Of a DNA stretch of 64,000 bases, positions 1 to 58,147 are shown piece after piece (the first letter of the stretch is position 1; the number at the start of each line of letters is the position of its first letter). The DNA comes from a virus: the IMG/VR virus record IMGVR_UViG_3300045738_002037, positions 1 through 64,000 of that record, one strand, 5' to 3'. The notes under the pieces were generated by a model, which saw only the letters and a program-made list of their open reading frames with translations, did not search any database and had not been told where the DNA came from. The position numbers and the translations under genes were made by a program.

Positions 1-179
1 CAACAGCTAGAAACTACATCATCCCCAAGCCCGTATTCATCCTCAATGTTGTCCAGTGGATTCGTCGAAAGCGGTCGCCGATCTTTAGGGTAGAAAGTCC
101 GACCCGCAAAATTATGGCCAAATTCATGCGGATCTTCCGTAATGAATGCGGCAATATGTTTAATAGTTTTCTTATCCAT
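1..179 (-). CDS. ITEDP-leader protein (partial, runs off window); putative internal head protein
   Basis: Not in ORF track. ATG at 179 gives MDKKTIKHIAAFITEDPHEFGHNFAGRTFYPKDRRP..., open to the window edge. Confidence 0.8.
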   Translation of the reverse strand, partial: MDKKTIKHIAAFITEDPHEFGHNFAGRTFYPKDRRPLSTNPLDNIEDEYGLGDDVVSSC

Positions 180-192
180 TTTCTTGCCTATA

Positions 193-486
193 TTATTGTA
201 CAACCAACTTTTCCTGTTGATTCATCTGAAAACGCTTTCCAGAATCTTCGTCGACGATATACCAGTTGTGCATCTGGTTTGGATTCCATCGACGCATATA
301 CTCAACCGCATCTTTAAGCGATTTGAAATTAGCAAAGGCATCGTAAGAACCATTTGCGTGTTTATAAACTCGGAATTTATATCCACCAGGCTCCGGCATT
401 TTGCCCATTGCGGTTTTTTCAGGACCAAATTCATCCGGATCTTCCGTAATGAATGCAGCAATATATTTGATAGTTTTCTTATCCAC
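193..486 (-). CDS. ITEDP-leader protein, 97 aa
   Basis: Track ORF 193..765, but the leader (M)DKKTIKYIAAFITEDPDEF starts at GTG 486, which overlaps the upstream stop (GTGGATAA). Start reassigned on that basis. Confidence 0.75.
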   Translation of the reverse strand: MDKKTIKYIAAFITEDPDEFGPEKTAMGKMPEPGGYKFRVYKHANGSYDAFANFKSLKDAVEYMRRWNPNQMHNWYIVDEDSGKRFQMNQQEKLVVQ

Positions 487-1618
487 CGTGGGGACCCTCT
501 CTCCACGCCTCGCGGCCATAATATTCTCCTGCGTCCGGGCCAGCAGCACCGCCGCCTCTCGCCTGATGGTGCCAGGGTTCTGAGAGTGAGTCGTCTTCTC
601 TTGCCCCAAATTTTTTGTCTTGCCATGTGGCCCCGGTGCTTTGCGGCGGCCTGTCCAGTTGGCCTCTTCGCGGTACAGGCTTAACGGTAATCTGTTTAGC
701 GCCAGCTGATTTGGCAGAATCAATGGCGAATGATAGTTGACCAAGCAGCGGTGTGTCATTGACATTCAAATCTAAGTCCATCATATTTGCGCCTTTAAAC
801 AAAATCCACATGCCTTCGGGCTGCGCGTCAGATGTTAATAATTCTAAGGTATACTCTTCAGGAATATCAGAGCCACCCTGAAACTCATTAATGACTCCTG
901 CCCGCACTAGCCCCTCTCTCCACGCCTCGCGGCCATAATGTTCTCCTGCGTCCGGGCCAGCAGCACCGCCGCCGCCCGCCTGATTCTGCCAGGGTTCTGA
1001 GAGTGAGTCGTCACCGCCGCCCATCGCCTGATCCTGCCAGTGTTGATCGTGATCGTGCTGGGCGTCTTCTCTTGCCTGCAACTCGGTTGCTCCCCAATCG
1101 TTGGCACCTCCCCCTCCCTCATATATCCCCTCGGGTACCCCGGCATCCTGAAGCACCACCTCCAATGCTGGAGATGGCTTGGAGAGCGGTACGTCATCGC
1201 GATTATGCCAGCCGAGGCCAGCACGTTCCGATGCGGCGATAAACGGCTCTCCATCTTTAAGCACAAAATAAATTGGTTTGTACATTTCAGCAGTTCTCCG
1301 CGCATCTTCACTCCCGGTGTCATTGGGGTCATGTGGCGGATCGGGGTTAAAACACCACTTAGTTCCTTCCCCAAGTCTCATTATTTCCTCGACATCATCG
1401 ACGACTATTACTTCGTATGTAATATCTCTATTAGGCCCAACTTGCATAGTAGAAAGAACTTCACGTCCACCTTCCATACCAGGAAGAAGCCGTTGTCGTT
1501 CTTCTTGTTCCATAATATCTAACGGCCCGCCCGATACTTGTAGATCAGGACTAAATTCATTCGGATCTTCCGTAATGAATGCAGCAAGATGGTTAATAGT
1601 GTTCTTGTTCATTTCCAT
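479..1618 (-). CDS. ITEDP-leader protein, 379 aa, with GxGTxWC motif and internal duplication
   Basis: N-terminus MEMNKNTINHLAAFITEDPNEF; motif LGEGTKWCF; repeated DDSLSEPW...GREAWREG segment. Confidence 0.8.
   Translation of the reverse strand: MEMNKNTINHLAAFITEDPNEFSPDLQVSGGPLDIMEQEERQRLLPGMEGGREVLSTMQVGPNRDITYEVIVVDDVEEIMRLGEGTKWCFNPDPPHDPNDTGSEDARRTAEMYKPIYFVLKDGEPFIAASERAGLGWHNRDDVPLSKPSPALEVVLQDAGVPEGIYEGGGGANDWGATELQAREDAQHDHDQHWQDQAMGGGDDSLSEPWQNQAGGGGAAGPDAGEHYGREAWREGLVRAGVINEFQGGSDIPEEYTLELLTSDAQPEGMWILFKGANMMDLDLNVNDTPLLGQLSFAIDSAKSAGAKQITVKPVPRRGQLDRPPQSTGATWQDKKFGAREDDSLSEPWHHQARGGGAAGPDAGEYYGREAWREGPHGG
495..1012. repeat. ~101-bp direct repeat (495-595 and 912-1012)
   Basis: Near-identical copies encoding DDSLSEPW...AAGPDAGE.YGREAWREG. 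Confidence 0.9.
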
Positions 1619-1621
1619 TTG

Positions 1622-1933
1622 CTAATACTCCAAACCTGACTGAGACATATGTTCTATTGATTCAATATAAGATAAAAACTTTTGTGATTCCTCTCCCTGC
1701 CTTACGCTATCCGCTAACTCTCTTTTCTGGGCTTCTCTCTCTTGAGCATTTACCTTAATATCCGAATGGGAGAATGGCTGACCTGGAGTGACTCGTTTGT
1801 GCCCTGCTCGATCCACTCCACCCAGTTGGTCAAACGTCTCTTGGTCAAACGATCCAGTATTAAATTCATCCGGATCTTCCGTAATGAATGTGGCAAGATG
1901 GTCAATGGTGTTCTTATTCATTTTCTTATCCAT
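1622..1933 (-). CDS. ITEDP-leader protein, 103 aa
   Basis: MDKKMNKNTIDHLATFITEDPDEF; C-terminal half paralogous to 1968..2336. Confidence 0.8.
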   Translation of the reverse strand: MDKKMNKNTIDHLATFITEDPDEFNTGSFDQETFDQLGGVDRAGHKRVTPGQPFSHSDIKVNAQEREAQKRELADSVRQGEESQKFLSYIESIEHMSQSGLEY

Positions 1934-2116
1934 TTTTATTCTTCTTTCGCAAGAATGTTAGTCTAACCTAATACTCCAAACCTGACTGAGACATATGTTC
2001 TATTGACTCAATGTAAGATAAAAACTGTTGTGCGTGTTGGCCCTGCTTTACGATATCCGCTAACTCTCTTTTCTGGGCTTCCCTCTCTTGAGCATTTACC
2101 TTGATATCCGAATGGG
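1622..2116. repeat. ~149-bp direct repeat (1622-1770 and 1968-2116)
   Basis: Both copies encode HSDIKVNAQEREAQKRELAD...FLSYIESIEHMSQSGLEY*. Confidence 0.9.
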
Positions 2117-2336
2117 TGTGACCCGCTTCATCCTGCCTCTTCGCTTCCTCCGGGTCGTAGTAGTACTCTTTAATAGTGCCTTTAGGCGGTTGCAAGTTAA
2201 ATTCGCGCGGATCTTCCGTAATGAATGCGGCAAGCTGTTCGATGTCTTTCTTATTCATTTTCATTTTATTCTTCTTTATTTGATCTAGATCTTCATTAAG
2301 AACTTTATCAAGTTTTTGTTCAAATCGGCTGCTCAT
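1968..2336 (-). CDS. ITEDP-leader protein, 122 aa (first gene of the array)
   Basis: MSSRFEQKLDKVLNEDLD...MNKKDIEQLAAFITEDPREF. Confidence 0.8.
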   Translation of the reverse strand: MSSRFEQKLDKVLNEDLDQIKKNKMKMNKKDIEQLAAFITEDPREFNLQPPKGTIKEYYYDPEEAKRQDEAGHTHSDIKVNAQEREAQKRELADIVKQGQHAQQFLSYIESIEHMSQSGLEY

Positions 2337-2362
2337 GTCAGTCCCTATAGCGATATTTATAA

Positions 2363-2370
2363 TATATTTG
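2363..2370 (-). promoter_or_regulatory. Putative late promoter motif CAAATATA upstream of the ITEDP array
   Basis: Same motif recurs shortly upstream of many structural gene starts; resembles T4 late TATAAATA. Confidence 0.45.
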
Positions 2371-2473
2371 CATAATTATGCAAACACATAATGACATAGA
2401 TGTTGTTTTTTCACCATACCTATAACGCAATAAAAAGGGGATATTAATCGAACTTATACCGCATAGAGATCAG

Positions 2474-2499
2474 CTCCTTTGTTACTTTAAATAAAGGAG
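2474..2499 (+). promoter_or_regulatory. SD-sequestering hairpin
   Basis: CTCCTTTGTT pairs with AATAAAGGAG (10 bp, one G-U), covering the AAGGAG SD of the ORF at 2506. Confidence 0.55.
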
Positions 2500-2505
2500 A
2501 AAACA

Positions 2506-2685
2506 ATGCGTAAGATAATAAAGACAATTACATGGAACACGATAGCTTTTAGTATCACTTTTATAGTAGGCTGGATTATCACCGGGTCTATAGAAACCGG
2601 CGGAGCTATTGGAATTGTTTGCCGTCTATTAAAGGTTCCCAGCTATTGGGTACACGAATCCATCTGGGACAATTATACTATATAA
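2506..2685 (+). CDS. DUF2061-like small membrane protein, 59 aa
   Basis: Not in track. MRKIIKTITWNTIAFSITFIVGWIITGSIETGGAIGIVCRLLKVPSYWVHESIWDNYTI matches the K-x-I-T-W...TGS...HE-x-I-W pattern; AAGGAG SD. Confidence 0.75.
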   Translation: MRKIIKTITWNTIAFSITFIVGWIITGSIETGGAIGIVCRLLKVPSYWVHESIWDNYTI

Positions 2686-2701
2686 AACACAAACATATTG
2701 T

Positions 2702-2833
2702 ATGGAATTTACATGGTGGATATGGTTAATAATAGGCATAGTCATAGGATGGCTTAGCGGCATCTTAAGCGTAATTGGTTATGTATACTTTAAAGTTAAA
2801 AGATTTACAAATCGTATAAAAAAGAGAAAATAG
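2702..2833 (+). CDS. Small single-pass membrane protein, 43 aa
   Basis: Not in track. MEFTWWIWLIIGIVIGWLSGILSVIGYVYFKVKRFTNRIKKRK: hydrophobic helix plus basic tail; no clear SD. Confidence 0.6.
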   Translation: MEFTWWIWLIIGIVIGWLSGILSVIGYVYFKVKRFTNRIKKRK

Positions 2834-2856
2834 ATTAAATTCAGAAAAAATAAAAC

Positions 2857-3306
2857 ATGAAATTATCATTAATATCTGAATCTACGGGACGTGATAGGGT
2901 ATTTGCAGATCTATTGCATAAATTGCATGGCCAAGTACCCAATTCGTTGATATTATCGATCAAAAAACTTCACGATAAAAAGAAATCATATCATCCAAAC
3001 GCAGTAAACGTATCAAATCAAGAAATTTATCAACAGTTGTTGGGCGGCGAACGACTACTTGGAATATTAGAACCACATCTGGATGATGAAAACAATAGAT
3101 ACCCACCAAATGGTGTAAGTGATTGTGGCGTCGAGTCATTCCCATCCGAAGATGGGAATGAATATTTAGTAGGTCCTGTGGCCGCAAAGGGCCATGAACA
3201 ATTATGGCAAGATGTTAATGCTTTGCCAAGACCTTCGCATACGATGAATATCGCGTTAGGATTATTGTTTGGATATGATCCAATAGAAATTCAAAAATTT
3301 TTGTAG
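2857..3306 (+). CDS. Hypothetical protein with MKLSLISE leader
   Basis: 149-aa ORF; N-terminus nearly identical to that of 34662..35006 (MKLSLICE). Confidence 0.75.
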   Translation: MKLSLISESTGRDRVFADLLHKLHGQVPNSLILSIKKLHDKKKSYHPNAVNVSNQEIYQQLLGGERLLGILEPHLDDENNRYPPNGVSDCGVESFPSEDGNEYLVGPVAAKGHEQLWQDVNALPRPSHTMNIALGLLFGYDPIEIQKFL

Positions 3307-3327
3307 TGCGACATTCATCTAACCTAT

Positions 3328-3365
3328 AAAAAAAGCCCGGATCGGCGAACCAATCCGGGCTTCTT
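3328..3365. terminator. Intrinsic terminator, probably bidirectional, downstream of the capsid gene
   Basis: AAGCCCGGAT...ATCCGGGCTT stem flanked by an A7 tract and TTCTT, between convergent genes. Confidence 0.85.
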
Positions 3366-3388
3366 AATTTGCCTAATAACAGCGTTTC

Positions 3389-4978
3389 TTACAGATTCGA
3401 AACCGTAATAACACCATAGTAAAGGCCACCATCTTCGATCAACTTCTTGCCGTATCGGGTCATGATGCCCTTATTCGGCGTGAAGCTGTTCGGATCGAGG
3501 ACAGTCGGGGTCGACAACAGTGGAATATACGGAGCATAAAAGTAGCCCGCATCCAACACTGAATTACCCTTGAAGCCCATCAGAATCCGACAATTCGGGA
3601 AGAGTGGGTCCTTGTAGACCTTCATCTTACCCTGCAAGTTACCGACATTCATAATGCCGATGTCAACGCCTTCAGTCGTGAACGCGTCGCTTGCGCGGAA
3701 ATCATTGAGCTGCTCGAACTTGGAACAAACATCAGCGGATGTTACCATCCAGTTCGCAGGACCACGCAAGGTGGTTCTGTGGATGATGTTTGCGACTTCC
3801 AGAGTCTTGTAAAGCAACGCAATGTTACGATCAGTGAAGTTCACTGATGCGCCCGCTGCGGTGGCGAAGTTATGGTCAGCACGAATAGCTGCGGCGATAA
3901 TGAGATCATTAATGATTTCACGATCAATTTCCGCGACCATTTCATCGGCCATCAAGTCGGTTAACGTCGACTCGGCGTCGATGTTATGAACCGCCTTGAG
4001 GTCCTGTGCTGCTTCCAATGACCATGAAGTCTTCAGCTTACGAGTAACGGCAGCAACGCTGTCGCTATCGATGCTAAGAGTGACTTCCGGCTGGAAGGGG
4101 TTAGATTCCAAATCATACTCGTAATTAACGCGTGCAACGGAACCGGTCGGAAGACCGTCACCAGAAGCATCGAGTGTAATTTGAACAACGCCAGTAGCAT
4201 GATTAAATGTCGTAGCACCAGAAGTGGTGGTATCAACAGTAATAGCACTGGTAAAACCAGTCACGCTACCAATCAAAACCGTATCAGGATCGCCATCAGC
4301 ATCAAAGCTGACACGAAGCCCAGGAGTTACGTCAGCGCAAGCCGGATCAGCATTCTCGGCAGAGTCATAGACTTCAACCACTACCGTACCGGAAAGAACT
4401 GGACGATGAGCGAGTGTTGCCGAAACCAGCTTACCTTCAGTGCTGATCGTGGCGTCTTCGCCCTTAACTTCCTGAGAACTGTAGTACGGATCCAACGCCC
4501 AACCGTTCTGACGAGCAAAGCTCTGAGCGGTATTTTGACGCATGATCTGCGTACCAGCAGTCGTTTGGCCCTTAGTAAGAGCGTAACGATACCTGATGTA
4601 AAAAATTAAACTAGCAGGCTGACTCATGGGCTGAACGCCAACGAGATTGTCTGCAATCAACTTGGGATAGGACTTTCGGATCAGAGGGAGAGCAAACCGC
4701 GTAAAGTCGGCAATGTTTGCCGTAGTGGTTTGATCTTCCAAAATGACCGATCGGCCTTCGGGATTCCAAGCATTATACTGATTTTCAAGAAGAGCAGCCA
4801 TCATCCCGAACTTTTGCGTACTGATTTCTCGGCACTTGCTCAGAACTGGCGACCACTTCTTGACCAACTGGTTTCGCTTCGACTCATGTATAACTGCTGC
4901 CTTGTGGAGATCAGTTTGCTCCATGAGCGGGCGACCAGCTGTCCCTTCAGTCAGATGACGACGAGTAGGAAGAGTCAT
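3389..4978 (-). CDS. gp23: Major capsid protein (T4 gp23-like)
   Basis: LIADNLVGVQPMSQP, RKLKTSWSLEAAQDLKAVH, AEIDREII, GYFYAPYIPL, GIMTRYG motifs. Confidence 0.97.
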   Translation of the reverse strand: MTLPTRRHLTEGTAGRPLMEQTDLHKAAVIHESKRNQLVKKWSPVLSKCREISTQKFGMMAALLENQYNAWNPEGRSVILEDQTTTANIADFTRFALPLIRKSYPKLIADNLVGVQPMSQPASLIFYIRYRYALTKGQTTAGTQIMRQNTAQSFARQNGWALDPYYSSQEVKGEDATISTEGKLVSATLAHRPVLSGTVVVEVYDSAENADPACADVTPGLRVSFDADGDPDTVLIGSVTGFTSAITVDTTTSGATTFNHATGVVQITLDASGDGLPTGSVARVNYEYDLESNPFQPEVTLSIDSDSVAAVTRKLKTSWSLEAAQDLKAVHNIDAESTLTDLMADEMVAEIDREIINDLIIAAAIRADHNFATAAGASVNFTDRNIALLYKTLEVANIIHRTTLRGPANWMVTSADVCSKFEQLNDFRASDAFTTEGVDIGIMNVGNLQGKMKVYKDPLFPNCRILMGFKGNSVLDAGYFYAPYIPLLSTPTVLDPNSFTPNKGIMTRYGKKLIEDGGLYYGVITVSNL

Positions 4979-5014
4979 TAGTCACTCCAATAACAAACTT
5001 TAGTTAATAATTAA

Positions 5015-5740
5015 TTAAATAAGATCTTCATCCATGTCTTTGGCTATGTCGGGAATCCCAAAACCGTCACCGGACGTGCCAGTAACATGGGATTCTTCAC
5101 GTTGCTTCGTAGGATTAGGATCTTGATTTTCCAAAATCGTGGGTCTGGTAGTTACCGGCTTACCAGAACGCCGTTTCGCATCAATTCGACGCGATCTTTT
5201 AGAAGGAGCGCTCTCTTCAACTGTCGATTCAACTTGCACCTGCAGATTCTTATGAATTGTAGACTCTAAGGATCTATTTTTCTTAAGAATCTTTTCTGCC
5301 AGCGCAGTCTGTCGATTAGCAGTTTCAACAGCTAACTTCCTCTCCTCATTTACTGCCTTAACTTGCCGCTTCAACTTCTTTAATTCGGCTTCAATTTCTC
5401 CATCGGGTCGACCATTTGGCTCAATTCCTTCCACAAGGGAAACAATGTCCTTGAGCTTGGCCAGCGCCTGGGATTCTTTAATTGCCGATTGACGAGTTAA
5501 AACAGCCTCCACAGCAGCGGATTTGGTTTCACAGAAAATCTGCACGCGACGAGCCAGTTCTTGCTTATGAGTCTCTGTCTCTTCGACGCAAATCTTTTTG
5601 GCTTCTTCGATTTTTGCTGAGTACTCAGACTCGAACTGCTCTCGGAGCGTTTTCTTGTAGCTTTCTAAAGATTCGCAGATCTGTTGGGACATTTCAGGCT
5701 TTACACCAGATTTTTCCAACAATGCTTTAATCTTTTTCAT
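5015..5740 (-). CDS. Prohead scaffold/core protein (gp22-like)
   Basis: Coiled-coil, Glu/Lys-rich; lies between protease and capsid genes as T4 gene 22 does. Confidence 0.7.
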   Translation of the reverse strand: MKKIKALLEKSGVKPEMSQQICESLESYKKTLREQFESEYSAKIEEAKKICVEETETHKQELARRVQIFCETKSAAVEAVLTRQSAIKESQALAKLKDIVSLVEGIEPNGRPDGEIEAELKKLKRQVKAVNEERKLAVETANRQTALAEKILKKNRSLESTIHKNLQVQVESTVEESAPSKRSRRIDAKRRSGKPVTTRPTILENQDPNPTKQREESHVTGTSGDGFGIPDIAKDMDEDLI

Positions 5741-5833
5741 TTTATGGCTCCAATAAAAACCGTTAGTTTAATAATATATTTGATCGAAACAATTATAAAG
5801 AATTATAATTACCTATTAAGCAATAATAATCCC

Positions 5834-6571
5834 CTATTTAAGATCAAAATAATTGTTTATCTCCTTAACTAACATTCGTTCGTAGGTAACCCTATCGAAC
5901 TTACCGCGAGCCTTCCGAATCGGGCGTAACCTATTATTCAAACCCTCTTGAATATTAAGTATTGCTCCATCAACCGAAGGTTCTGCGACAGCATCCCAAG
6001 TTACAAATGAATAACCAGGCATTACTTTGTATTTTTCTTGACCGCCGGATTCAACAACTTCCATGTCGCCAACACCGCGAGAAGAGATCCCAACGCGAAT
6101 TTTGTGCTCAAATAATCCTCGAAGACAAGCACCACACGGTAATCGATGAAGAATTTCAGCTTCACCGTAGACTTTGCGGCCTTCCATCCAAATCTTCGTA
6201 ATCAGATGGCTAACCCTGTCTAAATGAATTTTAGCATCGGCGGGGTGATCGTATTCACCCATAACGCCACGCTTGCCAATATCTTCTTGAATATTTTCAA
6301 CGGCTGGCGCTAAGACATCTTTGGTACTATAAACTCGGCCATTGGCGTTTTCTCTATCGCCTTCCTGGAACAGTCCAGTAACTCTTAGCGACGGCTCTTC
6401 ATTACCGTTTATACCTTCTACCACCACATTTTTAATATCTAGCACATTAAAGGCATATGTGTCACGAATCAACTGCATTCCTGCAGGAATTTCACCTGTT
6501 TCAGCGATTATTTGGCGGTTGATTGGGGTAATCCCCGCCATTGTCACTTTACCACGTCTTGTAGGCAGCAT
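5834..6571 (-). CDS. gp21: Prohead maturation protease (gp21-like)
   Basis: NANGRVY, GEYDHP (catalytic His), GISSRGVG (catalytic Ser), WDAVAEPS. Confidence 0.95.
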   Translation of the reverse strand: MLPTRRGKVTMAGITPINRQIIAETGEIPAGMQLIRDTYAFNVLDIKNVVVEGINGNEEPSLRVTGLFQEGDRENANGRVYSTKDVLAPAVENIQEDIGKRGVMGEYDHPADAKIHLDRVSHLITKIWMEGRKVYGEAEILHRLPCGACLRGLFEHKIRVGISSRGVGDMEVVESGGQEKYKVMPGYSFVTWDAVAEPSVDGAILNIQEGLNNRLRPIRKARGKFDRVTYERMLVKEINNYFDLK

Positions 6572-6582
6572 GTTTTATTACC

Positions 6583-9500
6583 TTATCCAGCTTTCGGAGG
6601 TTTAGTACCTGTGCCATCGTCTTTCTTGACTTTCGGCCCAATGCTGTCCAGCTTGTCAAGCTCACCTTTAGACATTTTTACTTTAGGCACTTCTCGCTTG
6701 TCACCGCTAACAAGCTTGGTATACTTGCTACTTTTAGGATCTGTGATGTCTTTATCTTCTGCGACACCTTCCTCCTCCTCTTCTTCCTCTTCTGCTGGCT
6801 CTACTGGCCCTACTGGCTCCACTGGTTCTTCACCACTAACTTCTTCAACACCTTCAACACCTTCAACGCCTTCAACGCCTTCAACGCCTTCAATTTCTCC
6901 ACCTTCCATGTTTTCAAAATCAGGCATTTCATCGGCAACGTCCGCCATCGGCTCTGCTTCTATGTCTGGAGGAACCACAGTATCTACCGGACTCATGTCC
7001 GGAACTTCCGGGACTTCCGGAAGAGCCTCGACGTCACCGGCAATCATGTCATCTCCAACTTCACTAACTTCCACATCCGAATCCACCTCTACCGAGATCG
7101 ACCCATCAGCATTAGCCGTAATAGTTGCTATGGCTTCTTTCAATGCATCATCTTCTTCTTCACTAATTGGCCGCAACTGTTCAATATTAGCAGAAAGCCA
7201 TTCAATGAAAGCGTCTGCATGGCCATCGGATAACCCAGCCGCAGCAAATGCGCTTTCCTGAACTTCTTCTGGCAATGGAACTTCAACACTGCCATCTTCA
7301 CTTAAAATCACTGGGGGAAGCTGAGAATCATTCCCACCATGGTCGAAAATGAAATTAACACCGTTAAATTGACCTGATTTACCGTCAACTTGCTCTTCAA
7401 CCCATTGCAATTCGTTTTCTGCACTCTCTGTTGCGTTAACGCTAGATCTCCTTAGACCCATTCTGCGTCGACGTGTGCCATCCTTGTATTGGTCTTCGCC
7501 CAGATCTTCAACATCTAAACCCTCTTCGCTATCGTTAGTGGGGTCGTCATCCATCTGCTTGTCGGTTAGTTCAGAAATCGGCGGTTGCAAGTTAAAATAA
7601 CTATCGCCCACTTCACTAAAACTACGAACTGCTTCGTCAATAGCCGGACCAATTTTATTATCCGGAATTCTTAAACCGATCGCTTCGATGCTAGCCTTTG
7701 CCAAATCTTCAAGGTTTTCCGCTAATGCTCCGCCCTTGAGATTATTCTCTTCGGCAAGCCTATTCATAATTTCGACAATTTTCGAAAGATCTGAGGAATC
7801 TTCCAAGACTGTGGAACCGTAATCACTCATGTCAATTGATGCGTTATCATTAAAAGCATATGGGTCATGGCTTTCTTCCCATGGTTTACCACTGGTTCTC
7901 TCTTCTTTTTCTTTTTTCAAATTGTCGTAACGCTTACTTCCAACTGCTTTCCCATCATCATCAGAATCATCGGAATCATCATCATCATCATCGGAATCAG
8001 CCCCAAATTGATACTGTTTAAGATGGTCGGCACTTTTTTGCTCGATGAAATACTCGTCGCCACTCCCCGCCACGGGAGCTTCTAGGGAATCGCCGGTTGC
8101 ATCCTTGTACGCTTGAAAGATTTGATCTGCGGTTGCCTTATCAATTCTTGTGCCTTTGGGATATTTGGCGTATATTTTTTTATCCATACTGGCAACCTGG
8201 CGCTCGACGTCTTCACTTAAAGCTTTCTTAGCCCGCTTACTCTCAAACGGAGATTCATCGTCGAACTCTTCTTCCTCCTCTTCTCCAAATTCTTCTTCCT
8301 CTTCTCCACCTAAAAGATCAGCAAGGCTTTCTTCGCCTTCTTCTTCCTCTTCTCCAAGATCTTCTTCACCAAAATCACCAAGATCGCCAAGATCGCCAAG
8401 ATCTTCTCCGCCTTCGCCTTCACCACCAGAAACATTGCTGCCGCCAATTTGAATCAACGGAGCATTAATATTAATAATTGGCGCTCCGCCGCCCTCAACA
8501 TCGAGATCCCCAAGACCCCCTCCAAGATCATCAAGGCCTTCGGATTCCTCATCAGGCATTTCATCGTCGCCGGGCATTATATCAAAATCACTTAGACCTT
8601 CATTGGCCGTAAGTTCTTCTTGAACTGTGGCAATCAAATCTTCAGCTTCATAAATAGCACTATCATCAAACTCAGGATCTTTTAAACGTTCAATAAGATC
8701 ATTAAGTTTAGAAGACATGCCGTGAGATTCTTTAATCTTCGGAGTTTTTTCCTTTAAAACTTGAAGAGTGGTAGCTAGAGCTTCTGCTGTCACTTCTCTA
8801 TTTGAAATGGCTTCGAAAATAAGCTCTAAAAACTTATCATAGGCAGCTTCAAAATTCTTAGTCTCGGCAAGAATGTGAACATTTTCCATAAGGACCGGAT
8901 GTTCTACTTTCTGCGCAATGTTAGTCCATTCTTTAATGATCGTGTCTTTATTAATCTTCAAATTAGTACGGTAGAATAAAGTAGACACATCATTGCACAA
9001 TTGTTGATTAAAACAAGCTTTAGAAGCCAAAACATTTTCAATCAATGTCTGAACTTGAATACGATTCAGAAGCGTAAATTCTTCATTCTCATCTAAAAAT
9101 GGAGAAATGACCTTTACCGCTTCTTCAATTTTATCAGCATAAACTAATTTGGATATACTATAAATGCGATTTTGAAATCCTGGGGACCAATATGCTTCCC
9201 CAGCAGCTTCGCGCATTTGCTTGCCAATTAATTTACGGGCGGCCCATTTAGTAACCGGAAGTTTTACTTCTTCACCATCATTAAATTGGCCCTTAATTGC
9301 GGAACCACCTTCCACAACCACTTTATCACGCAAAGCTTCTACAATAGCAGCAATAATCTTAGGCCGAACATCTTCGTCAATAGAACTACCGCTGGCAATC
9401 TTAACATGCCGCGTAATACCATCTTTAGTTCTCACCATGCCTGAATATGGAATGGCTCTTCCGCTAAATCGCTGCGAAGACATTTTATTAAACGCCGTGC

Positions 9501-9970: not shown

Positions 9971-11923
9971 TTATGAAGATGTTTTGTCTACAGGCAAATC
10001 ATCTTCAGTAATAATAGAAGATTGAACAATGGGTACCGACCCACCCATTAGAACTCTTTTTATTTCTTTAATTACACTATCACGCTCTTCTTCATCAACA
10101 GACCATTCCACAAGAAGGCCCGGATCATTCGGGTCATATGCACTGTCTTCAGAAATCGTTTTAGTAAGACCATCTAATTCTTTTATTTCCATTAAATGGT
10201 CATAACCGTTTACTATTTCAGGTTTTTCATTATCACCATTGCCAAATCTATCAGCCCATTTCTCAAGTATCTTTTTAACTTCTTTCCTTTGTCCTTGGCG
10301 GGCAAGTTCCATTATTATACGTTTTTCAGCCTTAATATCTAAACCTTCTTCGGCTTCTTCACCACCACCACCGCCGCCCATCAAAGCCTCCAAACCACCT
10401 GTGTCTCCACCCTCTTCTCCACCCTCTTCTCCACCTTCCATGCCTTCTTCTCCACCTTCCATGCCTTCTTCTCCACCTTCCATGCCTTCTTCTCCACCTA
10501 TTCCCATTGCTCCTGCAGGGCCGCCGCCGCCGGGACCACCATTTTTGGCCATATCTTCCATATCTTTTAATTCTTCAATTTCATCTGGCGACAGATCAGT
10601 GAATCTTGTCACAATCCACTCTTTCGGAAACCACCCAAGGTCTTTAAGATCGGCCATAACTCCAACGCGAGTTTGCCATGTTTCTATTCTATACAATTCT
10701 TCCATCGCAGAAGTAGCTGTCAACGCAAGGCTAAACTTTTTAATATCTTCAGCAGGATATCCACGCAATGCCAAATGAACAATGGCTACTTTAGTTAAAC
10801 CAGAAGACACTTCCCTTTGGATCCACTGAACAGATTTGGCAAATTCTGCATGTGATTGAGACAATGATTTTTCATTGGCTTCGCCAGACCCATCGCCAAT
10901 TCCAACCCTAGAAAATGGGATCTTCATTGGGGCAATCATTTTCTTCTTAAAATATTCGATATCTGCTATTTGATCTAAATTTTCAGCACCCGGAAGAACA
11001 TCAATATCTGGGCCAGTGCCGTCTGGTCTACGTGGCAAGAAGAAATCATCTTCTTGAATTAATGGAGAATATCGTTCATCAAATGTGCCGGTTGCTGGAT
11101 TATAAAATCGTTGCCGTTTAAATTGCCTCGCAATCATTTGCATGTATTCAGGCACTTCTTTTGGTGGGATCAAGCCAACCGGTATAATAAACTTCCTCTT
11201 TTCTGGAGCACGCGTAATTCTATAAATTAATGCGGCATCTTCCATCAATCGTAATTGTTTAAATGCTTTTCGGCCACCATCCATAATACTGCGGCCATAT
11301 GGATGATAAATATTCTCAAAACTAGTCAACCGCAAATGCATAACTTGCCATGGATGCATAAAAGTTGGTTCTTGCGTAAATTCATCTTGATAAAAGAACC
11401 CAACTAAATCACCATATCGCGTTTCTACACGTGTAAAATTATAAACATTTATAAATTTTACAGAACCAATGCCATCTCTGTTTTTATCCGGTATTATCTC
11501 AGCCGGAAAGTCACCATACTTACATAAATATCTTATAGCCGGACGACAATAATTGTCCCACTGCAATATGTTAAAAAATAAATCTTCCAATTCTTTCTTA
11601 ATTCTTGAACTTCCCGCTCGAATCACTAATGTGTGCTTTCGTTCAGGGTCAACTAACGAAGTTTCGTCAGCATAAAGATCCAAAGCGAGTGATATCTCGC
11701 CCATTTGATCCATTTGTTCATAATCTTTATAGCGTTCTAACCTATTAATTTGTAGGTTAGTTTGATCAAGAATTGCCGCTTGCTGATTAAAATCTAAAAA
11801 TTCTGCGCCAGCGGTTAGCCTATCCAAAGACGTTTGATCTTGGAATATTCTATCTGCTTGATATATTTTATGCTGACGCGTAAACGCGCGCAGTCTGTCA
11901 AATAACAGCCAATTGCTGGGCAT
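9971..11923 (-). CDS. gp20: Portal protein (gp20-like)
   Basis: PYGRSI, QLRLMEDAALIYRITRAPEKR, EDDFFLPRR, LPGAENL, DIEYF motifs. Confidence 0.96.
   Translation of the reverse strand: MPSNWLLFDRLRAFTRQHKIYQADRIFQDQTSLDRLTAGAEFLDFNQQAAILDQTNLQINRLERYKDYEQMDQMGEISLALDLYADETSLVDPERKHTLVIRAGSSRIKKELEDLFFNILQWDNYCRPAIRYLCKYGDFPAEIIPDKNRDGIGSVKFINVYNFTRVETRYGDLVGFFYQDEFTQEPTFMHPWQVMHLRLTSFENIYHPYGRSIMDGGRKAFKQLRLMEDAALIYRITRAPEKRKFIIPVGLIPPKEVPEYMQMIARQFKRQRFYNPATGTFDERYSPLIQEDDFFLPRRPDGTGPDIDVLPGAENLDQIADIEYFKKKMIAPMKIPFSRVGIGDGSGEANEKSLSQSHAEFAKSVQWIQREVSSGLTKVAIVHLALRGYPAEDIKKFSLALTATSAMEELYRIETWQTRVGVMADLKDLGWFPKEWIVTRFTDLSPDEIEELKDMEDMAKNGGPGGGGPAGAMGIGGEEGMEGGEEGMEGGEEGMEGGEEGGEEGGDTGGLEALMGGGGGGEEAEEGLDIKAEKRIIMELARQGQRKEVKKILEKWADRFGNGDNEKPEIVNGYDHLMEIKELDGLTKTISEDSAYDPNDPGLLVEWSVDEEERDSVIKEIKRVLMGGSVPIVQSSIITEDDLPVDKTSS
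10404..10498. repeat. Coding tandem repeats (GGEEGME, 21 bp x3, plus GGEE 12-bp units) in the portal C-terminal region
   Basis: TTCTCCACCTTCCATGCCTTC repeated. Confidence 0.85.
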
Positions 11924-11976: not shown

Positions 11977-13923
11977 TTACTGTCTTTTGTCAAAATATTT
12001 TCTAGGATCAACAACAGGATTTCCATCGCTTATTGGTATACCACCCAATTGCATCATATATTTCTCCAATTCTCTTTGAGCACTAACATCCGGCAAATCA
12101 TCAATTTCAGCAGCCATAGGCATCAATAATGATGGGCCGCCTTTATCAACAAACTCTTTTTGCATTTCAATAGTAGCAGGTTGGACAAAAAAATCGTCAT
12201 TGTCATTGCTAGTGGCATGTGGCACTAAACTACTAGCATCAACTGAAAATGCGTCCCTAGTACCTATAAACGCAAGTGCTAAGGCCATTACCAAGTCATC
12301 ATGGTTACTAGTGCCTTCTTCAGCTTCAGTTCTGCCAGTATCACGTCCCATCCTGTCTTTTTTGCGAACATAAATTTGCAGTTGTTTTAATAGTCGGCGG
12401 CTTTTAATATCATACCCTTCACCGTCATCTCTAATATTGTCCAACAGCAATTTGTTCAATGTGGCTTTGCTAGACTGACTAGTGAAAAACCCATAATTTG
12501 CGACTTGCAGCGCACGTTGGTGGCTTGATTGACGTGGTTTATCGTTAATGCTTTTTTTACGCCATATTCTGGGATACATCACGTTATAACGTAATTCATC
12601 GATGAGAATGTCGCCGCCATTATTACGCTCAACCACACACAAAGCACAATTATACCAACGCCCGATTCTATCAATATATTTCACCAAATCACGAGGTAAA
12701 CATCTAGTCATAAATTCAGCAACTTGTTCCATAGTATCAATGTCCAACACCTGTATGGCATGGTAATCTTTACCTTTGCCAGTGGCAGTGTCAACACCCA
12801 TAACATAAGAATGAGATGCCGATGGCGATTCTATTATTTTATCATTAAGTCTCTTTTCAGGCGTCGCAACAACTGGCCTTTTCCAAACCCACAATCCTTC
12901 TCCAGGCTCGTTAAATGTGAAATTGAGTTCTTCTGCATCACCACTAACAGGATGCACATAAGTTTGCGAACCAGTTATTTTTTCAAACTCATCGTCAGTT
13001 GTTGTAGACACATGCGCCAATGCTCCCTTAGGTAACACAGTATTACCTGACCCAACAAATGACGCTAAAATTTCTTGCTCAAATTTCCAAGCTTCGCCCT
13101 TATCCTGCAGTGCTTTATATTGTTCTTCTAACCACGGTGACCACCATGGCCCATATTTTTCTATATCAGCTTTAGATTCGCATTTACGTATATCGTCAGT
13201 CGGCGCAATCCTTATGTTCTGGTTAGACAATGGATCTGTGTATTCAATTGACCAGTCCATATCCCACCAATTAATGACAAGAGAATGGAAATTGTTTACA
13301 CCAGCTTCCGCGTCAGTATAAGTGCTCCAATACCAATTGCCTATACCATTAGTTGTAGAAATAACGATAACATTGCCGCCATGCTGTAATGTTGACCAAC
13401 CACCAGCCCATAGTACATCCATATTTTGAATAAATGCGGCTTCGTCGATGATGTTTAATGATGAAGCATTAGACCGAAGTACGTCTGGGTGCGAAGTAAG
13501 CGATCTTATGCTAGAACCATTGGGAAACACTATTTCATGGTCATTTTGTTTAATTGGCTGCCAAAGTCTTTTCATCCACTCTGGCAAATGCTCATACATA
13601 AAAGTTACATTGTTTCTTAAAAAATTCATCGCGTCTAAATCAGTTCTAGATACGATAAGAATTGTCTTATTAGACTGAAACATTGCGAACCATGTCGCAA
13701 ATGCTCCGGCAATTTTAGACGCGCCGGATTGCCGACATTTTCTAAAAATATTAAATCTATGCGTTCTAAAGTGTTTTATAGCAGTCTTTTGATATTTAAA
13801 CGGGCGAAAATCAATAATGCCAGCGCTTGGGTGTTTAACTTTGCCAAAATTACTCAAAAACCAAATTACTGATTGCTGGCACCTTTTTATAATTTGTGCT
13901 TGTTTATTATTAATACTCATCAT
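11977..13923 (-). CDS. gp17: Terminase large subunit (gp17-like)
   Basis: RPFKYQ, RKCRQSG, IIDEAAF (Walker B), ISTTNG, GVDTATG, VERNN, HDDLVMALALA. Confidence 0.96.
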   Translation of the reverse strand: MMSINNKQAQIIKRCQQSVIWFLSNFGKVKHPSAGIIDFRPFKYQKTAIKHFRTHRFNIFRKCRQSGASKIAGAFATWFAMFQSNKTILIVSRTDLDAMNFLRNNVTFMYEHLPEWMKRLWQPIKQNDHEIVFPNGSSIRSLTSHPDVLRSNASSLNIIDEAAFIQNMDVLWAGGWSTLQHGGNVIVISTTNGIGNWYWSTYTDAEAGVNNFHSLVINWWDMDWSIEYTDPLSNQNIRIAPTDDIRKCESKADIEKYGPWWSPWLEEQYKALQDKGEAWKFEQEILASFVGSGNTVLPKGALAHVSTTTDDEFEKITGSQTYVHPVSGDAEELNFTFNEPGEGLWVWKRPVVATPEKRLNDKIIESPSASHSYVMGVDTATGKGKDYHAIQVLDIDTMEQVAEFMTRCLPRDLVKYIDRIGRWYNCALCVVERNNGGDILIDELRYNVMYPRIWRKKSINDKPRQSSHQRALQVANYGFFTSQSSKATLNKLLLDNIRDDGEGYDIKSRRLLKQLQIYVRKKDRMGRDTGRTEAEEGTSNHDDLVMALALAFIGTRDAFSVDASSLVPHATSNDNDDFFVQPATIEMQKEFVDKGGPSLLMPMAAEIDDLPDVSAQRELEKYMMQLGGIPISDGNPVVDPRKYFDKRQ

Positions 13924-57511: not shown

Positions 57512-58147
57512 ATGGAAATTGACCCTAAACAAATAGCTAAGATGATAACGGAAGATCCGGATGAATATGCGGATTTCGAAGATGCTGATGAGTTCGAAAG
57601 CGGCGATCCAGACGGATATACACATTTCCACCCGGCGACCAAAACACTTTTTGAGTTGGGCGAATGCGAAAATTGCGGCAGAGATGTACAAGAAGCAAAT
57701 TCAGTAGGATATGTCAACCCGGACGACGAAATGATGATGATGGGGTACCATGAATATGAAGGTTCGTTACCTCCAGAAATCGCATGGGACGATGCTCTTA
57801 GTAGTGCCACTTGTGGAGAGTGCGGCCATGATCCCACAAGAATATTGGGGGATTTCAAAATAGAGACAAGCAGAATTCCTCCCAGGTCGTCCTGGCTTCA
57901 TGAAGAGAAACATCAGCTACGCCTACTCCGTCCCCGTCAAGGCCCAATTATTCGGAACATACAATGGTCGCCCGCAGCAATCACTATTCAATTTCCCAGC
58001 GGGGAAATCTGGGAATATGTCATTTATGAAAATCGATGGCTGCAAGATCTTTTAAAAAGCCATCGTCGAAATGTAGGGCGTCTCGTGGCTGCTATGAAAA
58101 GAATCCCAAATATTGAAGTTCAACGCGTGTTGGATCTTGAGTCTTAA
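57512..58147 (+). CDS. ITEDP-leader protein with zinc ribbon and KTSC-like C-terminus
   Basis: Start reassigned to ATG 57512 (MEIDPKQIAKMITEDPDEY); CENC...CGEC; WSPAAITIQFPSGEIWEYV. Confidence 0.7.
   Translation: MEIDPKQIAKMITEDPDEYADFEDADEFESGDPDGYTHFHPATKTLFELGECENCGRDVQEANSVGYVNPDDEMMMMGYHEYEGSLPPEIAWDDALSSATCGECGHDPTRILGDFKIETSRIPPRSSWLHEEKHQLRLLRPRQGPIIRNIQWSPAAITIQFPSGEIWEYVIYENRWLQDLLKSHRRNVGRLVAAMKRIPNIEVQRVLDLES

What the first reader, a model, noticed from the sequence alone, without database searches (positions are those of the whole stretch)
1..2336. Tandem array of cargo proteins sharing an 'AAFITE-DPxEF' leader: candidate capsid-targeting cassette system
Seen: five consecutive minus-strand genes (starts 2336, 1933, 1618, 486, 179; the array continues off-window) carry M(D/N)K(K/N)xIxx(I/L)A(A/T)FITEDPxEF at or near the N-terminus, then mostly diverge. 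A sixth, distant gene (57512, plus strand) starts MEIDPKQIAKMITEDPDEY. The array lies just downstream of the capsid operon behind a late-promoter-like motif. Known: T4 internal proteins IPI-III share a short capsid-targeting sequence removed by gp21 after (I/L)-x-E, and the polymorphic IPI locus encodes an injected GmrSD inhibitor. Inference: I-T-E is the gp21 site and the leader is a new head-packaging signal that loads interchangeable payloads, possibly anti-defence or host-takeover proteins injected with the DNA.
Basis: partly seen in the sequence, partly recalled or inferred. Interest (0 to 1): 0.85.

Follow-up and report, generated by a model that had tools for sequence, protein, structure and literature searches.

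The report
Shared head-loading-like tag on phage genes
Five neighbouring genes of an uncultured marine T4-like giant phage begin with the same roughly 20-residue peptide, which heads over 170 otherwise unrelated protein families in this phage group and most likely works like phage T4's capsid-loading tag, though no experiment shows this.

Summary
Five tandem minus-strand genes share a 60-75-nt module that encodes M-x(2-8)-I/L-A-x-F-I-T-E-D-P-x-E-F. A 21-mer inside it occurs five times where none is expected. The wider contig (156.7 kb, uncultured, marine) holds at least 17 copies in two sub-types.

A profile of the leader finds 173 protein clusters among 1.84 billion. In 137 of 142 of them the Glu/Asp of the motif is residue 12-17 of the protein. 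The payloads are unrelated, mostly acidic and without known domains.

The leader is a separable add-on. It is not part of the predicted fold, and one payload domain also occurs leaderless or inside a single-leader polyprotein.

Circumstantial support for a T4-like capsid-targeting role:
- an S77 prohead protease is encoded;
- I-T-E is a proven T4 gp21 site (Alt);
- the capsid protein has a conserved I-L-E|D at its expected maturation point;
- the array shares a promoter-like element with the portal and scaffold genes;
- the leader weakly resembles the scaffold's C-terminal tail.

Against: Asp often replaces the presumed P1 Glu, the payloads are acidic, and no virion data exist.

Verdict: a new variant of the T4 CTS idea, unproven. 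This scan has reported similar leader families before, in this genome and in other jumbo phages.

The parts
2354..2369 (-). Promoter-like element AAATATATTATAAATA, which contains TATAAATA. It lies 31 nt upstream of the ATG at 2336.
   Evidence: The same AAATATAYTATWAA element lies 35 and 39 nt upstream of the portal (11923) and scaffold (5740) starts. These are the only exact or near-exact occurrences with that geometry in the window.
1968..2336 (-). A1: leader-bearing gene. It is 122 aa from 2336, or about 98 aa if it starts at the ATG at 2264. Its C-terminal half is a paralog of A2.
   Evidence: Close homologs (P0069, P0092, P0177) start M-K-M-N-K, and in 137 of 142 family members the motif Glu/Asp is residue 12-17. 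Both points favour the internal start.
1622..1933 (-). A2: leader-bearing gene of 103 aa, 60% identical to A1.
   Evidence: The 149-nt direct repeat 1622-1770 / 1968-2116 is 91% identical.
479..1618 (-). A3: leader-bearing gene of 379 aa. Layout: leader, shared stretch ending D-I-M-E (residues 34-37), module X, repeat R, module Y, repeat R.
   Evidence: AF2 gives low confidence for the leader and the R regions, and pLDDT 59-79 for module X at about residues 50-158. The R copies are at 495-595 and 912-1012, 95% identical.
193..486 (-). A4: leader-bearing gene of 97 aa with a GTG start that overlaps the A3 stop. Its payload is the roughly 65-aa module Z.
   Evidence: AF2 gives pLDDT below 50 for residues 1-34 and about 80 for the folded residues 35-97.
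1..179 (-). A5: leader-bearing gene truncated by the end of the contig. The full form elsewhere is 117 aa.
   Evidence: P0023 is 100% identical over the 59 aa present here.
57512..58147 (+). Distant family member with the type-B leader (M-E-I-D-P-K-Q-I-A-K-M-I-T-E-D-P). TATAAATA lies 35 nt upstream.
5834..6571 (-). Prohead protease of the T4 gp21 type, the presumed processing enzyme.
   Evidence: Pfam Peptidase_S77, E = 9.5e-17. It is conserved in 62 related loci.
5015..5740 (-). Scaffold-like protein. Its conserved C-terminal tail (I-A-x-x-M-D-E-D-L-I, encoded at 5018-5047) is the only head-protein segment that aligns with the leader profile.
   Evidence: hhalign of leader against scaffold gives P = 0.015 over 13-14 columns. 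Controls give P = 0.15-0.64.
4733..4744 (-). Candidate maturation site I-L-E|D in the gp23-type capsid protein (residues 79-82 of 3389..4978).
   Evidence: [I/L]-[L/F]-E followed by D/E/N is kept in all 80 related capsid proteins. It lies between the propeptide helix and the start of the mature fold in the alignment with T4 gp23.
3334..3351 (-). Terminator-like hairpin after the capsid gene. It separates the capsid operon from the array.

Best explanation
The array is one late transcription unit of five genes. Each product starts with a short, unstructured or weakly helical N-terminal address peptide with core I-A-x-hydrophobic-I/L-T/S-E/D-D-P-D/N, in which the acidic residue is residue 12-17.

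The peptide most likely docks otherwise unrelated small proteins into the assembling prohead, either on the scaffold core or on the inner face of the gp23-type shell, as the capsid targeting sequence does for the T4 internal proteins and Alt. In the window's copies, which all read I-T-E, the S77 prohead protease probably then cuts after the Glu. A3 has a second candidate site at the invariant I-M-E of residue 37.

The same 60-75-nt leader module also serves as a homology patch. Payload modules are swapped, split off or fused through it, which explains the mosaic genes.

Shown here: the tag is real, strictly N-terminal, under protein-level selection, separable from the payload folds, restricted to this phage clade, and placed behind a promoter-like element shared with head genes.

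Inferred, not shown: binding to the prohead, cleavage, presence in virions, ejection, and any payload function.
For: 1. Position. A leader profile finds 173 clusters (E <= 1e-3) among 1.84e9 representatives. About 140 of the 150 listed match from residue 1-7, and the Glu/Asp is residue 12-17 in 137 of 142. T4 CTS propeptides are 10-19 residues long (PMC9026906).

2. Protein-level selection. Within one complete relative, 18 leaders use all synonymous codons for the invariant A, D and P. Relatives differ in codons.

3. Separable tag.
- AF2 leaves residues 1-34 of A4 and 1-49 of A3 unstructured, while the payload folds.
- Module Z occurs with a type-A leader, with a type-B-like leader, leaderless, or inside polyproteins.
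- In relative P0177 one leader precedes X-Z-Y in a single ORF. In the window Z has become a separate gene and has gained its own leader.

4. Protease logic.
- The phage encodes an S77 protease, a scaffold-like protein and a gp23-type capsid protein.
- T4 gp21 cuts Alt at I-T-E and L-T-E (PMC5694885).
- The capsid protein keeps [I/L]-[L/F]-E|D at its expected maturation point in 80 of 80 relatives.
- The 1102-aa head-operon protein keeps P-V-I-L-S-E-D-G.
- The polyprotein junctions read L-E-E|G and V-E-E|G.

5. Co-regulation. AAATATAYTATWAA lies 31-39 nt upstream of the array, portal and scaffold starts.

6. Neighbourhood. In relatives, leader genes sit inside or next to the head operon (L006 8050-8331, L008 8364-9143, L039 1822).

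7. Resemblance to the scaffold. The leader profile aligns only with the scaffold C-terminal tail (P = 0.015; five controls 0.15-0.64). A loose pattern, [IV]A..[MILFV].[ED][ED], written after seeing both sequences and so partly circular, hits only leaders and that tail among the long ORFs of the contig.

8. Clade restriction. No N-terminal copy was found in 185,579 prokaryotic species genomes. The 31 hits there are internal and close to the roughly 19 I estimate by chance.
Against: No virion, proteomic or expression data exist; all relatives are uncultured.

The presumed P1 Glu is not invariant. It is Asp in 13 of 142 representatives and in 10 of 18 leaders of one complete relative. T4 gp21 does not process Asp at that position (PMC9026906). 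The motif is therefore conserved for something other than, or in addition to, cleavage.

The strongest conservation (D-P-D/N, then acidic residues) lies on the side that would stay on the mature protein, unlike the T4 CTS.

The predicted mature payloads are acidic (pI 4.1-5.1 for 15 of 16), whereas the T4 internal proteins are basic.

Copy number varies widely among complete relatives: 18, 2, 1 and 0.

The protease-scaffold gap in relatives is a general insertion hot spot that also holds unrelated genes, so synteny is weak evidence.

TATAAATA itself is not enriched. The only sigma factor I identified is a sigma-70-family protein, and I did not search for a T4 gp55 homolog.

The similarity to the scaffold is weak: HH probability 3%, and P about 0.075 after correcting for five comparisons.
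Confidence: 0.55

Rival explanations
1. The leader is a short docking motif for a hub other than the prohead. Candidates are a host complex, a phage replication or transcription factory, a chaperone or a protease adaptor. It recruits many small effector domains there, and the resemblance to a gp21 site is coincidental.
For: The family invariants are A, D and P rather than the Glu, and E/D interchange is frequent. Conservation extends into the part that would remain after cleavage (D-P-D-E-V-N-P-L-D in type B). The payloads are acidic, unlike the T4 internal proteins. Most copies on the contig lie far from the structural genes, on both strands. One complete relative has none.
Against: A binding motif for a cytoplasmic hub need not sit at residues 6-18 of every one of about 140 proteins. 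The array shares a promoter-like element with the portal and scaffold genes. The only head-protein segment that resembles the leader is the scaffold tail. All five window copies keep a perfect I-T-E, the site cut in T4 Alt (PMC5694885).
Confidence: 0.22
2. The leader does target proteins to the prohead but is not removed at I-T-E. It is a permanent cargo-loading peptide, comparable to encapsulin targeting peptides or scaffold tails. Any cleavage happens elsewhere, for example at I-M-E in A3 or L-E-E|G in the polyproteins, or not at all.
For: Asp replaces Glu in 9% of the family and in 10 of 18 leaders in one genome. T4 CTS with Asp at position 10 still targets but is not processed (PMC9026906). 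The leader resembles the scaffold C-terminal tail, which is itself a terminal peptide. D-I-M-E is invariant at the end of the shared 37-residue region of the A3 subfamily.
Against: All window copies and 129 of 142 representatives do have Glu preceded by I/L-T/S, which matches the T4 rule. Nothing here distinguishes cleaved from uncleaved.
Confidence: 0.15
3. The shared module is mainly a DNA-level gene-start and recombination cassette (ribosome-binding region plus the first 20 codons). It captures and shuffles ORFs and has no sorting function for the peptide itself.
For: Within this contig the codons TTC ATT ACG GAA GAT CCG are frozen in all type-A copies, and ACG GAA GAT CCG in nearly all 17 copies, although ACG, CCG and TTC make up only 16-23% of synonymous usage. 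The repeat extends upstream of the start codon. Mosaic genes show exchange at the leader boundary.
Against: Across genomes, and within the 395-kb relative, synonymous sites are saturated while the peptide is conserved. A is 142/142, D 142/142 and P 142/142 over clusters that share less than 50% identity. The peptide is therefore under strong purifying selection. The nucleotide identity in this contig is better explained by recent expansion or gene conversion.
Confidence: 0.05

Closest known systems
Capsid targeting sequence (CTS) of phage T4 internal proteins IPI, IPII, IPIII and of Alt, removed by the gp21 prohead protease
   Same: - A short N-terminal peptide (T4: 10-19 residues; here the acidic residue is at 12-17) is shared by otherwise unrelated proteins.
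- It ends in hydrophobic-x-Glu; I-T-E is the actual Alt site.
- The phage encodes an S77 protease, a scaffold core protein and a gp23-type shell protein.
- Payload genes are polymorphic and shuffled between relatives.
(PMC3012670, PMC9026906, PMC5694885.)
   Different: - There is no sequence similarity to M-K-T-Y-Q-E-F-I-A-E.
- The invariant residues (D-P) lie after the presumed cut.
- Asp often replaces Glu.
- The payloads are acidic, not basic.
- Copy number is far higher: at least 17 on 157 kb and 173 clusters at 50% identity, against 4-5 in T4.
- Packaging and cleavage are unproven.
Conserved N-terminal propeptides of paralogous ejection and inner-body proteins in giant phages (SPN3US gp53/gp54, phiKZ gp93), cut at A/S-x-E by the S80 protease
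   Same: Paralogs that have otherwise diverged keep an identical roughly 15-residue N-terminus containing protease motifs (PMC5694885). The setting is also a jumbo phage with many head-internal proteins.
   Different: The protease family (S80 against S77) and the motif (A/S-x-E against I-T-E) differ. Those proteins are shown to be in virions by mass spectrometry; these are not.
Cargo-loading peptides of encapsulins and C-terminal shell-binding tails of phage scaffolding proteins
   Same: A short terminal peptide suffices to place diverse cargo inside an HK97-fold shell. The leader here weakly resembles this phage's own scaffold C-terminal tail.
   Different: Those peptides are usually C-terminal and are not removed. 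No binding to the shell protein has been tested here.
Modular shuffling cassettes of T4-type genomes (PeSL promoter-stem-loop elements; hyperplastic regions)
   Same: A short conserved DNA module at gene starts marks the boundaries at which unrelated ORFs are exchanged (titles and abstracts of PMC2839356 and PMC4122927).
   Different: PeSLs are non-coding regulatory cassettes. Here the conserved module is coding, and its peptide is under selection.

Membership tests
T4-type capsid targeting sequence / internal-protein system | A short N-terminal peptide shared by proteins that are otherwise unrelated | tested here: met
   A3, A4 and A5 share only residues 1-28. There are 173 clusters, and the acidic residue is at position 12-17 in 137 of 142.
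T4-type capsid targeting sequence / internal-protein system | The peptide ends in the prohead-protease motif (I/L)-x-Glu | tested here: met
   All five window copies read I-T-E. Family-wide: I/L 142/142, T/S 142/142, Glu 129/142 and Asp 13/142. In one relative 10 of 18 leaders have Asp.
T4-type capsid targeting sequence / internal-protein system | The phage encodes a gp21-type (S77) protease, a scaffold core and a gp23-type capsid protein with a cleaved propeptide | tested here: met
   Pfam Peptidase_S77 9.5e-17, Gp23 7e-81, Portal_T4 5.4e-69. The scaffold is assigned by position and coiled-coil character only. Capsid cleavage is inferred from the conserved I-L-E|D.
T4-type capsid targeting sequence / internal-protein system | Sequence homology of the leader to the T4 CTS (M-K-T-Y-Q-E-F-I-A-E) | tested here: not met
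   By eye the two share only the terminal hydrophobic-x-Glu; no alignment against the T4 CTS was run. Pfam, PHROGs and the PDB fold search give nothing for the leader proteins.
T4-type capsid targeting sequence / internal-protein system | [quoted passage not shown] | not testable with these tools
T4-type capsid targeting sequence / internal-protein system | The leader is removed by the prohead protease in vivo | not testable with these tools
   No proteomic data are available. E/D variation argues that cleavage is not universal.
T4 internal proteins (IPI-III) in the narrow sense | Small basic DNA-associated mature proteins | tested here: not met
   Predicted mature pI is 4.1-5.1 for 15 of 16 family members on the contig; A4 is 6.9.
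Polyvalent proteins of phages and conjugative elements (multi-domain injected anti-defence proteins; family recalled from my own knowledge) | Several recognisable effector domains (e.g. PBECR nucleases, ARTs, PcfJ) in one polypeptide | tested here: inconclusive
   A3/P0177 are multi-module, but no Pfam domain is found. The only leads are ESM-Atlas feature scores of 0.89-0.92 to PcfJ and PBECR4 clusters and weak GNAT-like fold matches with Z <= 5.5. One relative, P0116, has a sub-threshold PARP hit of 23.7 bits against a cut-off of 26.7.

The most novel reading that the evidence does not exclude
The leader is not primarily a protease site. It is an N-terminal mimic of the scaffold protein's C-terminal shell-binding tail (I-A-x-x-hydrophobic-x-E-D). 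By competing for the same pocket on the inner face of the gp23-type shell, it would let this clade of jumbo phages load dozens of unrelated, acidic, often zinc-ribbon proteins into the head. That would be an encapsulin-like cargo-loading system inside a T4-type virus. The leader DNA would double as the recombination patch that lets new cargo genes be captured.
Probability: 0.18. Interest if true: 0.8.

Novelty: new variant of a known kind. Interest (0 to 1): 0.55.

Why it matters
If the tag does load proteins into the head, this uncultured marine jumbo-phage clade ships a large and fast-evolving set of proteins with its DNA. That set is one gene in about ten on this contig and more than 170 protein families clade-wide, far beyond T4's handful. 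These proteins would be the first phage products to meet the host, and therefore prime candidates for counter-defence or takeover factors of unknown type.

The tag would also give a simple sequence rule for predicting virion cargo from metagenomes, and a new portable loading peptide for protein delivery.

The natural experiment seen here links the tag to a need of each separately translated product: a payload domain gains its own leader when it is split from a single-leader polyprotein.

The idea itself (a CTS on diverse internal proteins) is established for T4. This scan has already flagged comparable leader families in this genome and in other jumbo phages. The surprise is therefore one of scale and sequence, not of principle.

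Tried and rejected
- DNA- or RNA-level element as the main explanation. Rejected because synonymous sites are saturated in relatives and within the 395-kb relative, while the peptide is kept.
- Codon bias as the cause of the frozen 21-mer. Rejected: ACG 16%, CCG 23%, TTC 20% of synonymous usage.
- Exact 18-mer search in viral contigs: no hit.
- Megablast of 1-6600 against GenBank phages: no hit. The best capsid-protein hit is only 39% identical.
- Pfam and PHROGs on the five proteins and on the 57512 gene: nothing meaningful.
- Pfam on 148 family representatives: a few zinc ribbons, single DnaJ and RNAP-alpha-CTD hits, and one sub-threshold PARP.
- Fold search of the A4 model: no PDB match at E <= 1e-3.
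- A3 model: mean pLDDT 41; best structural matches have Z <= 5.5 (partial GNAT-like), below the noise level stated by the tool.
- Stand-alone homologs of A3 module X: none.
Replaced by a degenerate DNA pattern, which gave 31 internal hits, near my rough estimate of about 19 chance hits, and no N-terminal leader.
- Synteny of leader genes inside the head operon as strong evidence. Downgraded, because the protease-scaffold gap of relatives also holds many unrelated inserts.
- A conserved I-A-E-T-G in the protease N-terminus as an autocleavage site. Not pursued, because the Glu is lost in more distant relatives.
- Literature search for the motif strings: only false hits.
- Circular closure of the contig at position 1: not supported. 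A5 continues differently in P0023.
No complex prediction, neighbourhood look-up or read mapping could be done.
Full report
SETTING

The window is the first 64 kb of a single 156,696-bp contig. The contig comes from an uncultured phage and its proteins occur only in JGI, ENA, Tara and Logan metagenomes.

The phage is a distant T4 relative.
- Capsid protein 3389..4978(-): Pfam Gp23, E = 7e-81.
- Protease 5834..6571(-): Peptidase_S77, E = 9.5e-17.
- Portal 9971..11923(-): Portal_T4, E = 5.4e-69.
- Large terminase 11977..13923(-).
- Between protease and capsid gene lies a 241-aa coiled-coil, scaffold-like protein.
- Between portal and protease lies a 1102-aa, very acidic protein.

The best capsid-protein match among GenBank phages is 39% identical. 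IMG/VR holds at least 80 loci at 74-94% capsid identity, on contigs of up to 408 kb. The contig is therefore probably a fragment of a jumbo genome.

THE OBSERVATION

All five ORFs are present on the minus strand with the stated starts. The 21-mer GCATTCATTACGGAAGATCCG occurs five times at up to 1 mismatch, with 0.00 expected. The repeated unit is about 75 nt and runs from the ribosome-binding region through codon 20 or so.

A1 and A2 are 60% identical along their whole length. A3, A4 and A5 share only the first 20-28 residues.

A4 starts with GTG inside the A3 stop region (GTGGATAA), which suggests translational coupling.

A5 is cut by the contig end. A 117-aa protein that is 100% identical over the 59 residues present shows how it continues. 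The contig does not close on itself at that point.

For A1, homologs starting M-K-M-N-K and the family-wide position rule described below favour the ATG at 2264 over 2336.

THE WIDER FAMILY

- Type A (D-K-K-T-I-x-x-I/L-A-A-F-I-T-E-D-P-x-E-F): the five array genes plus one at about 94.95 kb. A degenerate neighbour lies at 95.69 kb.
- Type B (M-x-I-D-P-K-Q-I-A-K-M-I-T-E-D-P-D-E-V-N-P-L-D-N-I-E-D-x-Y): the gene at 57512 and ten more at 125-134 and 154.6 kb.

Related loci carry the same core at the N-termini of quite different ORFs.

A 34-column profile (A1) was searched against 1.84 billion cluster representatives. It gave 173 hits at E <= 1e-3, with lengths of 34-588 aa apart from one 1,098-aa internal match. 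About 140 of the 150 listed match from residue 1-7.

The logo from 142 N-terminal members is:
- I 126/142
- A 142/142
- K/R
- M/L/F
- I 124, L 18
- T 128, S 14
- E 129, D 13
- D 142/142
- P 142/142
- D 117, N 21

The E/D residue is residue 12-17 of the protein in 137 of 142.

A degenerate DNA pattern for I-A-x-x-I-T-E-D-P-D was run against one genome for each of 185,579 prokaryotic species. It gave 31 hits, against roughly 19 I estimated by chance. All were internal to unrelated proteins. The tag is therefore specific to this phage clade.

PROTEIN-LEVEL OR NUCLEIC-ACID-LEVEL CONSTRAINT?

Within this contig the codons ACG GAA GAT CCG are nearly invariant in all 17 copies. TTC ATT is likewise fixed in all type-A copies. 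Yet ACG, CCG and TTC are minority codons, at 16%, 23% and 20% of synonymous usage.

Relatives use other codons. In one complete 395-kb relative, 18 leaders use every synonymous codon for the invariant residues.

The peptide is therefore under purifying selection. The nucleotide identity on this contig reflects recent expansion or gene conversion.

THE TAG IS A SEPARABLE ADD-ON

AF2 gives pLDDT below 50 for residues 1-34 of A4 and about 80 for a compact fold over residues 35-97. In A3 residues 1-49 are of low confidence, while module X (about 50-158) reaches pLDDT 59-79.

The A4 payload, module Z, has 14 homologs.
- One carries a type-B-like leader.
- Most carry no leader and have a poly-Asn N-terminus instead.
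- In P0118 and P0177 module Z is internal.

P0177 reads leader - X - (G-L-E-E-G-L) - Z - (G-V-E-E-G-L) - Y - R in one ORF. P0092 reads leader - Y. The window has leader - X - R - Y - R (A3), followed by a new leader - Z (A4).

So when Z became a separately translated product it gained its own copy of the tag. That is what a sorting signal predicts.

The shared N-terminal region of the A3 subfamily ends at an invariant D-I-M-E, residues 34-37. The inter-module junctions read L-E-E|G and V-E-E|G. All of these fit the hydrophobic-x-Glu rule.

LINKS TO THE HEAD MACHINERY

1. T4 gp21 cuts after Glu in (I/L)-x-E, and Alt is cut at I-T-E-6 and L-T-E-619 (PMC5694885).

2. The capsid protein keeps [I/L]-[L/F]-E followed by D (rarely E or N) in all 80 relatives. 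The site lies between the propeptide helix, which aligns with T4 gp23 residues 7-42, and the start of the mature fold.

3. The poorly conserved 1102-aa head-operon protein keeps P-V-I-L-S-E-D-G-S-V-E-I-P-I-P. The portal C-terminal tail keeps I-T-E-x-D-L-P.

4. The element AAATATAYTATWAA lies 31, 35 and 39 nt upstream of the array, portal and scaffold starts. A terminator-like hairpin follows the capsid gene. The array is therefore a separate unit, probably co-regulated with head genes.

5. Some relatives carry leader genes inside the head operon. That gap also takes unrelated inserts, so I give this little weight.

6. The scaffold C-terminus (I-A-x-x-M-D-E-D-L-I; the A is invariant in 45 unique tails) is the one place where hhalign aligns the leader profile: P = 0.015 over 13-14 columns. 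Capsid protein, portal, the 1102-aa protein, the protease and a reversed scaffold alignment give P = 0.15-0.64. This is weak evidence. It suggests a mechanism in which the leader uses the same docking site as the scaffold tail. In T4 the scaffold N-terminus (M-L-K-E-Q-L-I-A-E) likewise resembles the CTS (read from the T4 record).

WHAT ARGUES AGAINST, OR LIMITS, THE CLAIM

- The Glu is replaced by Asp in 9% of representatives and in 10 of 18 leaders of one genome. In T4, Asp at that position blocks processing but not targeting (PMC9026906). Targeting is therefore the better-supported half of the hypothesis and cleavage the weaker half.
- The invariant D-P and the acidic stretch after it would remain on the mature protein.
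- Predicted mature payloads are acidic, with pI 4.1-5.1 in 15 of 16, unlike T4's basic internal proteins.
- Copy number in complete relatives is 18, 2, 1 and 0.
- Payload function is unknown. Pfam finds a few zinc ribbons and one sub-threshold PARP-like domain among 148 representatives. A3 module X has only weak leads: PcfJ/PBECR4 by language-model features, and partial GNAT-like folds at Z <= 5.5.

COMPARISON AND VERDICT

[quoted passage not shown] The conserved propeptides of giant-phage ejection-protein paralogs are a second comparator (PMC5694885).

The leader is not homologous to the T4 CTS and fails the basic-protein criterion. I therefore file it as a new variant of a known kind, not as a member of the T4 family. 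I put 0.55 on capsid targeting with probable cleavage, and a further 0.15 on targeting without cleavage at I-T-E.

The scan has already reported the type-B island and a fused polyprotein on this same contig. It has also reported analogous leader families in several other jumbo phages. Those notes are not independent evidence. They do show that the theme recurs.

Noticed in passing
window 6583-9891 (-): A 1102-aa, extremely acidic protein with no Pfam family lies between the portal and the prohead protease, in the slot where T4 has gp67 and gp68. It is poorly conserved (29-48% identity) except for the motif P-V-I-L-S-E-D-G-S-V-E-I-P-I-P near residue 861, which is kept in about 40 relatives.
   Followed up: partly
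window 9971-10010 (-), portal C-terminus: The C-terminal tail of the T4-type portal keeps an I-T-E-x-D-L-P motif across relatives (I-I-T-E-D-D-L-P here). It resembles the leader core I-T-E-D-P. It could be a protease site or a shared docking motif.
   Followed up: partly
window 5018-5047 (-), scaffold C-terminus: The scaffold tail D-I-A-K-D-M-D-E-D-L-I is conserved, with I-A invariant in 45 unique tails. It is the only head-protein segment that aligns with the leader profile (hhalign P = 0.015; controls 0.15-0.64).
   Followed up: yes
window 495-595 and 912-1012 (-), inside A3: A 101-nt direct repeat, 95% identical, encodes a Gly/Ala-rich low-complexity segment (D-D-S-L-S-E-P-W ... G-R-E-A-W-R-E-G). 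One copy occupies the place where relatives have the A4 payload domain.
   Followed up: partly
proteins P0165-P0176 (homologs of the A4 payload): Leaderless homologs of the roughly 65-aa A4 domain nearly all begin with a run of 5-8 Asn residues (M-T-N-N-N-N-N-N). This may be just AT-rich coding, or a different N-terminal signal in another phage lineage.
   Followed up: no
window 1-2000: The array is much more GC-rich (47%) than most of the window (34-43%). A3 in particular is GC-rich, which suggests recently acquired payload DNA.
   Followed up: no
G000 contig 132304-133980 (-), outside the window: A 552-aa ORF contains three leader copies, at residues 1, about 345 (degenerate) and 413, in one frame without stops. 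It is either a polyprotein or fused gene calls. An earlier scan note describes it.
   Followed up: partly
L071 7435-8694 and L073 7654-9057 (between protease and scaffold in relatives): Proteins of 420-468 aa combine an N-terminal DUF3008 domain and a lysine-rich stretch with an internal leader copy (M-D-I-T-K-I-A-D-M-I-S-E-D-P) at about residue 72-90. This may be two genes read as one.
   Followed up: no
window 60742-61566 (-): The phage encodes a sigma-70-family protein (regions 2 and 4). I did not search for a T4 gp55-type late sigma, so T4-style late-promoter logic should not be assumed.
   Followed up: no
window 2506-3306 (+): Three small plus-strand ORFs, two with clear transmembrane-like segments, sit between the capsid gene and the array, in opposite orientation to almost every other gene in the window.
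   Followed up: no
protein P0116 (243 aa, relative; not in the window): A leader-bearing protein with a sub-threshold PARP/ADP-ribosyltransferase-like match directly after the tag (23.7 bits, cut-off 26.7). It is reminiscent of T4 Alt, a packaged ADP-ribosyltransferase.
   Followed up: partly
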